This document shows positions 33,199 to 33,508 of a stretch of DNA of 33,508 bases, piece by piece. Position numbers and translations under genes: made by a program. How positions within the stretch are numbered: the stretch's first letter is position 1; the number at the start of each line of letters is the position of its first letter. Source of the stretch: a virus (Duplodnaviria; Heunggongvirae; Uroviricota; Caudoviricetes); the IMG/VR virus record IMGVR_UViG_2706794686_000007; one strand, given 5' to 3'. The notes under the pieces were generated by a model. That model was not told the origin of the DNA. It saw nothing but the letters and a program-made list of their open reading frames with translations, and searched no databases.

Positions 33199-33272
33199 TA
33201 GCATTAGCCCGCATTTTGCACTATATCGAGTATTTCGCATTGTTTGGAACGCCTTAAAAGACTAAAACCACA

Positions 33273-33439
33273 GTATCAAATGAGTTGCCGATTTTATAAT
33301 AAATGACTAATTATTGCACAATCGGTATCAAATAGACCTTATCCGCACATCTAGCCATCACCTGTTTTATTTCAGTATCTTACAGGTGATTTCACCTCCT
33401 TTCACTAAACCCCTTGTCGGTATCAAATGATTCACCTGG
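33273..33439. repeat. prophage end repeats (candidate transposase-binding sites of the left end)
   Basis: Three direct copies of GTATCAAAT(G/A)A at 33273, 33325 and 33420; GATT(T)CACCT at 33389 and 33429; inverted repeat ATCACCTGT…ACAGGTGAT (33357-65 / 33382-90). Confidence 0.45.
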
Positions 33440-33508
33440 TTATATGTCGCCAGTCGATACCTTCCAGCAGCATCGCCAGCTGCGCCTGTGTAAGGAACAC
33501 TTTGCCAT

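What the first reader, a model, noticed from the sequence alone, without database searches (positions are those of the whole stretch)
33262..33508. Prophage left end: triple end repeat and probable host junction
Three direct copies of GTATCAAAT(G/A)A with 52- and 95-bp spacing, plus GATT(T)CACCT twice, resemble the three transposase-binding sites of a Mu-type end. The TATCAA core is the reverse complement of the TTGATA operator half-site. Beyond about 33440 composition becomes GC-rich and codon-like; a minus-strand frame reads …GKVFLTQAQLAMLLEGIDWRHITR and stops at 33432-33434, consistent with a host gene interrupted by the insertion. The exact terminus (a CA on this strand at 33433-34 or 33451-52) cannot be fixed without the other end.
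Basis: partly seen in the sequence, partly recalled or inferred. Interest (0 to 1): 0.45.

Follow-up and report, generated by a model that had tools for sequence, protein, structure and literature searches.

The report
Mu-like prophage left end in IS66
This is the true left end of a Mu-like transposable prophage of E. coli, carrying three likely transposase-binding repeats and joined at base 33444/33445 to an interrupted IS66-family gene. It is ordinary in kind, but this phage lineage ends in TA rather than CA and its relatives duplicate 4 bp of target, not 5.

Summary
Three same-strand copies of GTATCAAAT sit at 33273, 33325 and 33420, spaced 52 and 95 bp apart. The minus-strand frame and its stop at 33432-33434 are as described.

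The reading as a Mu-type left end next to host DNA is correct. The window is collinear at 99.5-100% with a 38,634-bp Mu-like prophage found in complete E. coli genomes at many different sites.

Three details need correcting:
- **Terminus.** The last phage base is 33444 (…GGTTATA).
- **Flanking gene.** The DNA from 33445 on is the orf2/tnpB gene of an IS66-family insertion sequence, cut 12 codons before its stop. It is not an ordinary chromosomal gene.
- **Target duplication.** Relatives make a 4-bp duplication, not 5 bp. Four independent insertions show it, and two rebuilt empty sites match intact genes 160/160.

The right end, seen in relatives, has the same TTTGATAC core three times. All six cores point the same way relative to their own terminus. 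They start at nt 18, 113 and 165 on the left and nt 18, 40 and 75 on the right, an arrangement close to Mu L1-L3 and R1-R3.

The right end of this particular insertion could not be recovered. Transposase binding is inferred, not shown.

The parts
33199..33444 (-). Non-coding left end (attL) of the Mu-like prophage, from the repressor stop codon to the last phage base
   Evidence: Collinear with the prophage L001:2216-40849 at 99.97% identity. In 12 complete E. coli genomes the match stops at window 33444-33451 with different flanking genes.
33441..33444 (.). Phage terminus TATA; 33444 is the last phage base (5'-TATAACCAGG… in phage orientation)
   Evidence: Searches show identical left ends next to different host sequences. 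The IS66 match begins at 33445.
33417..33430 (-). L1: terminal predicted transposase-binding site; core TTTGATAC at 33420-33427, nt 18-25 from the terminus
   Evidence: R1 at the right end lies at the same 18-25 nt from its own terminus.
33322..33335 (-). L2: second predicted site; core at 33325-33332, nt 113-120 from the terminus
   Evidence: Conserved in the Sp18-like relative.
33270..33283 (-). L3: third predicted site; core at 33273-33280, nt 165-172 from the terminus
   Evidence: The core CAGTATCAAA is kept in the Sp18-like relative while the sequence around it has diverged.
33445..33448 (.). Predicted copy of the 4-bp target-site duplication (TGTC on +, GACA in phage orientation)
   Evidence: Inferred from the 4-bp duplications of relatives. 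The second copy was not recovered for this insertion.
33445..33508 (-). Fragment of an IS66-family orf2/tnpB gene (codons …GKVFLTQAQLAMLLEGIDWR), cut 12 codons before its stop
   Evidence: 64/64 nt identical to annotated IS66-family tnpB copies. The intact protein ends …IDWRQPKRLLTSLTML. Pfam TnpB_IS66 matches at 17.8 bits, below the cutoff because the fragment is short.
33432..33446 (-). Chimeric tail of the truncated tnpB frame (H-I-T-R-stop), read across the junction into phage DNA
   Evidence: Direct reading compared with the intact TnpB.
33357..33390 (.). Perfect 9-nt inverted repeat ATCACCTGT / ACAGGTGAT in the L1-L2 spacer; together with CAGGTGAAT at 33430-33438 it forms a repeat set found only at the left end
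   Evidence: Absent from the right end. The spacer is almost identical in the Sp18-like relative. Function not established; a packaging or host-factor site is a guess.
32653..33198 (+). Repressor gene (181 aa, CI/XRE-type helix-turn-helix), transcribed towards the end as in Mu
   Evidence: Pfam HTH_3 and Phage_CI_repr match weakly. Annotated as a transcriptional regulator in relatives. No similarity to the transposase N-terminus.
32497..32520 (.). Perfect palindrome TTGATAACTAA-AC-TTAGTTATCAA between the repressor and ner-like genes; likely operator
   Evidence: Read. Its role is inferred.
32237..32467 (-). Ner-like DNA-binding protein gene
   Evidence: Pfam HTH_35, E = 1e-21.
30147..32234 (-). 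MuA-like DDE transposase (695 aa), the protein expected to bind L1-L3
   Evidence: Pfam Mu-transpos_C (E = 2e-17) and HTH_Tnp_Mu_1 (E = 1e-8). 23% identical to MuA over the full length, E = 1e-13. The only match to MuA among solved structures is its N-terminal domain, 1tns; the other matches are weak ones to retroviral integrase cores.
29132..30073 (-). MuB-like AAA+ transposition ATPase (313 aa)
   Evidence: Pfam Phage-MuB_C, E = 8e-25. 48% identical to MuB.

Best explanation
Window 33199-33444 is the left attachment end of a Mu-like transposable prophage, a close relative of the Sp18-type Mu-like prophages of E. coli. The three TTTGATAC-core repeats (L1, L2, L3) are the sites where the phage's MuA-like transposase (30147-32234) is expected to bind. 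With three matching sites at the right end, they would build the complex that nicks the phage DNA after its last base (33444) and joins that end to target DNA. The MuB-like ATPase (29132-30073) would help capture the target.

In this copy the target was the orf2/tnpB gene of an IS66-family insertion sequence. That gene is now truncated and runs on for four codons into phage DNA.

In this phage lineage both termini end in TA, and the staggered cuts in the target are 4 bp apart.

**Shown:** the position of the terminus, the identity of both sides of the junction, the six-site architecture, insertion at many unrelated sites, and the 4-bp duplication in relatives.

**Inferred:** that the transposase binds these repeats, and that this particular copy has a GACA duplication at its unseen right end.
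For: 1. **Same prophage elsewhere.** The window is collinear (99.5-100%) with a 38,634-bp prophage, L001:2216-40849. Its gene order is repressor, ner, Mu-type transposase, AAA ATPase, gam, mor, Mu-type head and tail genes, invertible tail-fibre segment, com and mom.
2. **Left terminus.** In 12 complete E. coli genomes the same left end stops at window 33444, give or take a few chance bases. The flanking genes differ: PilZ/bcsA, ybaE, elyC, citD, paaA, xdhA and others.
3. **Right terminus.** Nineteen right ends all finish …GCGCTATA, followed by unrelated sequence.
4. **Six cores.** TTTGATAC occurs three times at each end, always in the same orientation relative to its own terminus. The cores start at nt 18, 113, 165 (left) and 18, 40, 75 (right). 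L1 and R1 are in identical register, and R1-R2 are 22 bp apart. The corresponding Mu motifs, read by eye from the Mu sequence, lie near nt 22, 127, 167 on the left, and Mu R1-R2 are also 22 bp apart.
5. **Rarity.** Only one other TTTGATAC exists in the 33.5-kb window, against 0.64 expected.
6. **Conservation.** Yersinia phage vB_YpM_5 keeps the core three times at each end, at 18, 122, 164 and with spacings of 22 and 35, although the surrounding sequence has diverged. The Sp18-like relative keeps all three left cores.
7. **Target duplication.** 4-bp duplications AACA, GACG, TACG and TAGA flank four independent insertions. GATG is annotated as the duplication in LC727881. Empty sites rebuilt with one 4-nt copy match intact bcsA and ybaE 160/160.
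8. **Flank.** Positions 33445-33508 are 100% identical to IS66-family tnpB, and the break falls inside that gene.
9. **Proteins.** MuA-like and MuB-like proteins are encoded next to the end.
Against: - No binding or transposition experiment exists for this phage, so the role of the repeats rests on architecture and conservation.
- Between this phage and the Sp18-like relative the whole L1-L2 spacer is conserved, not only the repeats. That comparison therefore cannot separate sites from spacer. Only the Yersinia phage and the right end do that.
- The right junction of this particular insertion was not found in any collection. A simple insertion with a GACA duplication is therefore predicted, not observed.
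- The window stops 64 nt into a multicopy IS, which looks like the end of a draft contig.
- TA termini differ from the TG…CA ends that the literature calls conserved in Mu-like phages (PMC4378225, PMC8705779).
Confidence: 0.9

Rival explanations
1. The junction is a real Mu-type end but not a simple insertion. It could be the product of a transposition-linked rearrangement (adjacent deletion, inversion or cointegrate). In that case the other part of the IS66 gene would not lie next to the phage's right end.
For: The right end of this copy could not be found with the predicted junction pattern in genome, metagenome or viral collections. Replicative transposition is known to make such rearrangements (established knowledge of Mu).
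Against: The failed searches are most simply explained by the source genome being absent from those collections, since the left junction itself is also absent. All four relatives checked are simple insertions with clean duplications.
Confidence: 0.08
2. The repeats are not transposase sites. They would serve another end-linked function, such as repressor or operator-type binding (they share TTGATA with the operator palindrome) or recognition for packaging.
For: TTGATA occurs in the palindrome 32497-32520 and in TTTGATA at 32496 and 32522. Five of the eight TTTGATA in the window lie in the last 1.1 kb.
Against: The same core occurs three times at the right end, in register with the terminus. 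That fits a transposase, which must act on both ends. Mu packaging signals are on the left end only (my recollection of the Mu literature). The Yersinia phage keeps the end cores but has no TTTGATA in its repressor-ner intergenic region.
Confidence: 0.04
3. The phage-IS66 joint is an assembly artefact at the end of a draft contig, and the repeats are chance similarities in AT-rich DNA.
For: The window starts inside the invertible tail-fibre segment and ends 64 nt into a multicopy IS, both typical places for contigs to break. In simulations, 1.3% of sequences had some 8-mer three times.
Against: The joint falls exactly at the phage terminus defined independently by more than 12 other insertions. 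An assembly error would not do that. The repeats recur at the right end and in diverged relatives.
Confidence: 0.02

Closest known systems
Phage Mu attL (L1, L2, L3) and attR (R1, R2, R3)
   Same: - Three repeats at each end.
- First site about 20 nt from the terminus at both ends.
- A long L1-L2 gap and a short L2-L3 gap on the left.
- R1-R2 spaced 22 bp apart on the right.
- The repressor gene reads towards the end, followed by ner, transposase A and ATPase B.
- Insertion at many unrelated host sites.
   Different: - No sequence similarity between the site motifs: TTTGATAC(C/T) here, and …CGAAA(A/G) in Mu by my reading of its sequence.
- R3 is direct here and, by my reading, inverted in Mu.
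- Termini are TA…TA rather than TG…CA.
- The duplication is 4 bp, not 5.
- The transposase is only 23% identical to MuA.
- The repressor is CI/XRE-type and unrelated to the transposase N-terminus, whereas Mu's repressor shares its N-terminal domain with MuA (established knowledge).
Sp18-type Mu-like prophages of Shiga-toxin-producing E. coli (Sp18 of O157 Sakai; Mu_JNE082796 in LC727881)
   Same: - Transposase 93.8% identical.
- Left end about 78% identical overall and nearly identical over the last 150 nt.
- Right end about 96% identical.
- The same six cores.
- A 4-bp duplication annotated by the depositors.
   Different: - The left terminus of that phage is …GGTTACA (a CA end) where the window has …GGTTATA.
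- The repressor gene and the L3 surroundings have diverged.
Yersinia phage vB_YpM_5 / vB_YpM_6 (isolated virions, classified as Muvirus)
   Same: TTTGATAC occurs three times at each end with almost the same spacing (left 18, 122, 164; right spacings 22 and 35). Termini inferred from that register are also TA…TA.
   Different: - The sequence around the cores and the regulatory region differ.
- Its L1-L2 spacer resembles that of Mu itself.
- Its termini were inferred from the register only.
TA-TA transposable prophages of Leptospira (PMC8705779)
   Same: Transposable prophages whose ends carry TA at both termini instead of TG…CA.
   Different: Those have B3/Tn552-type transposases and a 6-bp duplication, and live in a different host phylum. 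No relatedness was tested here.

Membership tests
Mu-type transposable-phage end (works like Mu attL) | Several transposase-binding repeats at each end, with the terminal one at a fixed short distance from the cleavage point | tested here: met
   Six TTTGATAC cores start at nt 18, 113, 165 (left) and 18, 40, 75 (right), all in the same orientation towards their own terminus. This is sequence architecture only.
Mu-type transposable-phage end (works like Mu attL) | Insertion at many unrelated host sites, flanked by a short target duplication | tested here: met
   More than 12 left-end and 19 right-end contexts were seen. Clean duplications flank four independent insertions, and two rebuilt empty sites match intact genes.
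Mu-type transposable-phage end (works like Mu attL) | A MuA-type DDE transposase and a MuB-type ATPase encoded just inside the end, after the repressor and ner genes | tested here: met
Mu-type transposable-phage end (works like Mu attL) | The transposase physically binds the repeats | not testable with these tools
   Needs a footprint or gel-shift experiment.
Canonical Mu / Mu-like phages as described in the literature | 5'-TG…CA-3' termini (5'-TGT conserved) | tested here: not met
   The termini are 5'-TATA…TATA-3'. The Sp18-like relative has TGTA on the left and TATA on the right. The literature statements are in PMC4378225 and PMC8705779.
Canonical Mu / Mu-like phages as described in the literature | 5-bp target-site duplication | tested here: not met
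   Four independent insertions of this lineage and one Sp18-like insertion have 4 bp. This could not be tested for the window's own copy because its right end was not recovered.
Canonical Mu / Mu-like phages as described in the literature | Repressor homologous to the transposase N-terminal domain | tested here: not met
   BLASTP of repressor against transposase finds nothing (E > 1). The repressor matches the HTH_3 / CI-type fold weakly.
Sp18-type Mu-like prophages of E. coli | High identity of the transposase and of both ends to an annotated member | tested here: met
   Transposase 93.8% identical, left end 78%, right end about 96% in O157 genomes.
IS66-family insertion sequence, orf2/tnpB (the flanking DNA) | Sequence identity to annotated IS66-family tnpB | tested here: met
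   64/64 nt identical. The protein fragment matches the C-terminal part of the intact 115-aa TnpB. The Pfam match is below the cutoff only because 24 aa are available.
Integrase-type prophage attachment site (considered and rejected) | One fixed integration site with a core sequence shared by both junctions, and an integrase gene at the end | tested here: not met
   There are many integration sites. No integrase is annotated in the complete prophage; its only recombinase is the gene beside the invertible tail-fibre segment.

The most novel reading that the evidence does not exclude
This E. coli lineage of Mu-like phages transposes with non-canonical TA termini at both ends and a 4-bp target stagger. 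Its Sp18-type sister has CA on the left and TA on the right. That would make them a natural pair for asking how a Mu-type transposase tolerates loss of the 'universal' terminal CA and what sets the stagger length. The open literature searched here speaks only of TG-CA ends with 5- or 6-bp duplications for Mu- and B3-like phages, plus TA-TA ends with 6 bp in Leptospira.
Probability: 0.8. Interest if true: 0.4.

Novelty: new member of a known kind. Interest (0 to 1): 0.3.

Why it matters
**For annotation.** The result fixes the prophage boundary to the base (33444). It shows that the truncated frame at the window's end is a disrupted IS66-family gene, not a chromosomal gene. It also explains why the contig stops there.

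**For transposition biology.** The modest point of interest is that an abundant family of E. coli Mu-like prophages departs from two textbook Mu hallmarks. The family is found in about 230 of 5,426 complete genomes by its right end, including O157:H7. Its target duplication is 4 bp, not 5, and its termini end in TA, not CA. The six-site end architecture and the MuB partner are nevertheless kept.

Tried and rejected
- **Own right junction.** The right-end sequence of the closest relative gave no match in genome contigs. The predicted joint of IS66 DNA, 0-2 free bases and TRTA gave no match in genome contigs or metagenome contigs.
- **Own left junction.** It was not found in viral contigs or metagenome contigs. 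No record in the plasmid collection spans it. No complete E. coli genome covers more than 91% of the query. The source genome therefore appears to be outside these collections.
- **Distant comparison.** Pseudomonas phage VW-6B (transposase 47% identical) was tried for its ends. The record starts only 53 nt beyond the repressor gene, so its left end is not in the record.
- **5-bp duplication.** No shift of the termini gives identical 5-mers in any of the insertions, so this was rejected.
- **Structured RNA or tRNA.** Nothing was found anywhere in the window.
- **Terminator.** The terminator scan found nothing in 33199-33444.
- **Literature.** Searches for a 4-bp duplication in a Mu-like phage found no paper.

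Full report
**What is in the sequence.**
The last 250 bases of the window were read directly.
- GTATCAAATGA occurs at 33273-33283 and 33420-33430. The spacings of 52 and 95 bp are right.
- On the minus strand the shared exact core is TTTGATAC. It occurs four times in the 33.5-kb window against 0.64 expected, and three of the four lie here.
- GATT(T)CACCT is present twice (33388-33397, 33429-33437). The first copy belongs to a perfect 9-nt inverted repeat, 33357-33365 / 33382-33390.
- G+C rises from 0.37 to 0.56 at 33445.
- The minus-strand frame GKVFLTQAQLAMLLEGIDWRHITR, with its stop at 33432-33434, is as described.

**What the window is.**
Reading the window backwards gives the Mu early-region order:
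- 32653-33198 (+): a helix-turn-helix repressor;
- 32237-32467 (-): a Ner-type protein;
- 30147-32234 (-): a 695-aa protein with the Mu transposase C-terminal and Mu DNA-binding domains;
- 29132-30073 (-): a MuB-type ATPase.

The ATPase is 48% identical to MuB. The transposase is only 23% identical to MuA. Its only match to MuA among solved structures is the N-terminal domain; the other matches are weak ones to retroviral integrase cores.

The whole window is collinear, at 99.5-100% identity, with a 38,634-bp prophage that splits the ybaE gene of E. coli strain 600029 (L001:2216-40849). That prophage is annotated with gam, mor, Mu-type head and tail genes, an invertible tail-fibre segment, com and mom.

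The window begins inside the invertible segment and ends 64 nt into a multicopy insertion sequence. It therefore looks like a complete draft contig bounded by repeats. The right end of the prophage lies outside it.

**Where the phage ends.**
- A 609-nt query across the end matched 12 complete E. coli genomes up to window positions 33444-33451. Beyond that point each genome has a different gene: PilZ/bcsA, ybaE, elyC, citD, a P2 capsid gene, paaA, xdhA and an ABC protein.
- Extracting the junctions shows the identical sequence TATAACCAGGTGAATC… (phage orientation) next to unrelated flanks.
- From the other side, IS66-family tnpB copies match the window from 33445 onward, 64/64 nt.
- The junction is therefore 33444|33445.
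- The intact IS protein ends …IDWRQPKRLLTSLTML. The window reads …IDWR followed by HITR-stop, the tail coming from phage DNA. The interrupted gene is thus the accessory gene of another mobile element.

**The other end, from relatives.**
- In L001 the right end finishes …GGTATCAAAAAAATCGCCGCGCTATA. The same 26 nt were found in 16 viral contigs. With the three complete prophages that makes 19 right ends, each followed by different sequence.
- Read inward from each terminus, TTTGATAC starts at nt 18, 113 and 165 on the left and nt 18, 40 and 75 on the right. All six copies have the same orientation relative to their own terminus.
- L1 and R1 are in exactly the same register.
- R1-R2 are 22 bp apart, the same as in Mu by my reading of its right end.
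- By my reading of the Mu left end, the conserved CGAAA parts of its L1-L3 sites sit near nt 22, 127 and 167.
- The six-site consensus is roughly T-Y-W-TTTGATAC-Y-R. The two innermost sites, L3 and R3, share TTTGATACT.

**Conservation.**
- The Sp18-type relative carried inside an Stx2c phage (LC727881; transposase 93.8% identical) keeps all three left cores. Around L3 the flanks have diverged but the core has not. The L1-L2 spacer is almost identical as a whole, so that pair cannot separate sites from spacer.
- Yersinia phage vB_YpM_5, an isolated phage, is more informative. Its ends differ in sequence from the window but keep TTTGATAC three times on each side, at 18, 122, 164 and with right-end spacings of 22 and 35.
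- The best reading is that the repeats are the transposase sites of this phage group. This remains an inference from architecture and conservation.

**Two departures from Mu.**
1. **Termini.**
   - Both ends of this lineage are 5'-TATA…TATA-3'.
   - The Sp18-type relative has TGTA on the left, a normal CA end, but TATA on the right.
   - Published comparisons describe 5'-TGT or TG-CA as conserved in Mu-like phages.
   - TA-TA ends were reported as a new feature of B3-like prophages of Leptospira, which have 6-bp duplications (PMC4378225, PMC8705779).
2. **Target duplication.**
   - It is 4 bp, seen as AACA, GACG, TACG and TAGA in four independent insertions.
   - No shift of the ends gives matching 5-mers.
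   - Joining the flanks with a single 4-nt copy reproduces intact bcsA and ybaE 160/160 in thousands of genomes.
   - The depositors of LC727881 annotated a 4-bp duplication, GATG, for their Sp18-like phage.
   - I found no paper describing this.

For the window's own copy the predicted duplication is GACA (TGTC at 33445-33448).

**What could not be done.**
The right junction of this particular insertion was not found in the genome, metagenome, viral or plasmid collections, and neither was the left junction. The source genome is probably not in them. A simple insertion is therefore predicted, not shown. A transposition-linked rearrangement stays possible at about 8%.

**The operator remark.**
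A perfect palindrome, TTGATAACTAA-AC-TTAGTTATCAA, lies at 32497-32520, 30 nt upstream of the ner-like start. It shares TTGATA with the end cores, and five of the eight TTTGATA in the window lie in the last 1.1 kb.

Two results argue against a functional link. The repressor has no similarity to the transposase N-terminus. The Yersinia phage keeps the end cores without any TTTGATA in its regulatory region. I treat the resemblance as unproven.

**Verdict.**
This is a correctly spotted, ordinary kind of feature: the left end of a Mu-like prophage, here inserted into an IS66-family element. The element belongs to a known and common E. coli prophage family. The modest point of interest is that the family combines Mu-like six-site ends and a MuB partner with TA termini and a 4-bp duplication.

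Noticed in passing
window 33441-33444; L001:2216-2219 and 40846-40849; L006:1894-1897; L023:178-181: Both termini of this lineage read TATA (5'-TA…TA-3'). The Sp18-like relative has TGTA on the left and TATA on the right. The literature calls TG…CA conserved in Mu-like phages.
   Followed up: yes
L001, L003, L004/L030 and L005 junctions; LC727881 repeat_region features: The target-site duplication of this phage family is 4 bp (AACA, GACG, TACG, TAGA, GATG), not the 5 bp of Mu. Two rebuilt empty sites match intact genes exactly.
   Followed up: yes
window 33357-33365, 33382-33390, 33389-33397, 33430-33438: A set of CAGGTGA(A)AT-type repeats, one of them inverted, occurs only at the left end, in and next to the strongly conserved L1-L2 spacer. 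It could be a packaging or host-factor site. This is a guess.
   Followed up: partly
window 32497-32520: A perfect palindrome with 11-nt arms, TTGATAACTAA-AC-TTAGTTATCAA, lies 30 nt upstream of the ner-like start. It is probably the operator of the CI/XRE-type repressor, which is unrelated to the transposase N-terminus, unlike in Mu.
   Followed up: partly
window 1-761 and 33445-33508: The window starts inside the invertible tail-fibre segment (tail-fibre assembly gene at 64-585) and ends 64 nt into IS66. It looks like a whole draft contig bounded by repeats. An N-run occupies 762-1030.
   Followed up: partly
window 23401-23665 and 27358-27629: Two short stretches do not align with the otherwise 99.5-100% identical prophage of strain 600029. 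They lie in low-G+C kilobases (0.40 and 0.34), so they may be swapped accessory genes.
   Followed up: no
L001:19674-19753 (about window 15.83-15.94 kb, between the head-morphogenesis and virion-morphogenesis genes): RefSeq annotates a 'tRNA-OTHER' here in several relatives. ARAGORN and Rfam find nothing anywhere in the window.
   Followed up: partly
window 33190-33217: A 5-bp G+C stem (GCGGG…CCCGC) with a 13-nt loop, followed by ATTTT, overlaps the repressor stop codon. It may be a weak terminator. The terminator scan did not call it because the loop is too long for its rules.
   Followed up: no
L024:755-833 (Yersinia phage vB_YpM_5 record): The 'circular' GenBank record of this isolated phage joins the right end to the left end through about 79 nt of unrelated DNA. 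This is probably host DNA packaged with the genome, so the record is not trimmed to the true ends.
   Followed up: no
L004 (NZ_AP045820.1): The copy of the same prophage in this genome carries two IS66-family insertions of its own and a frameshifted transposase. IS66 elements and this phage hit each other in both directions.
   Followed up: no
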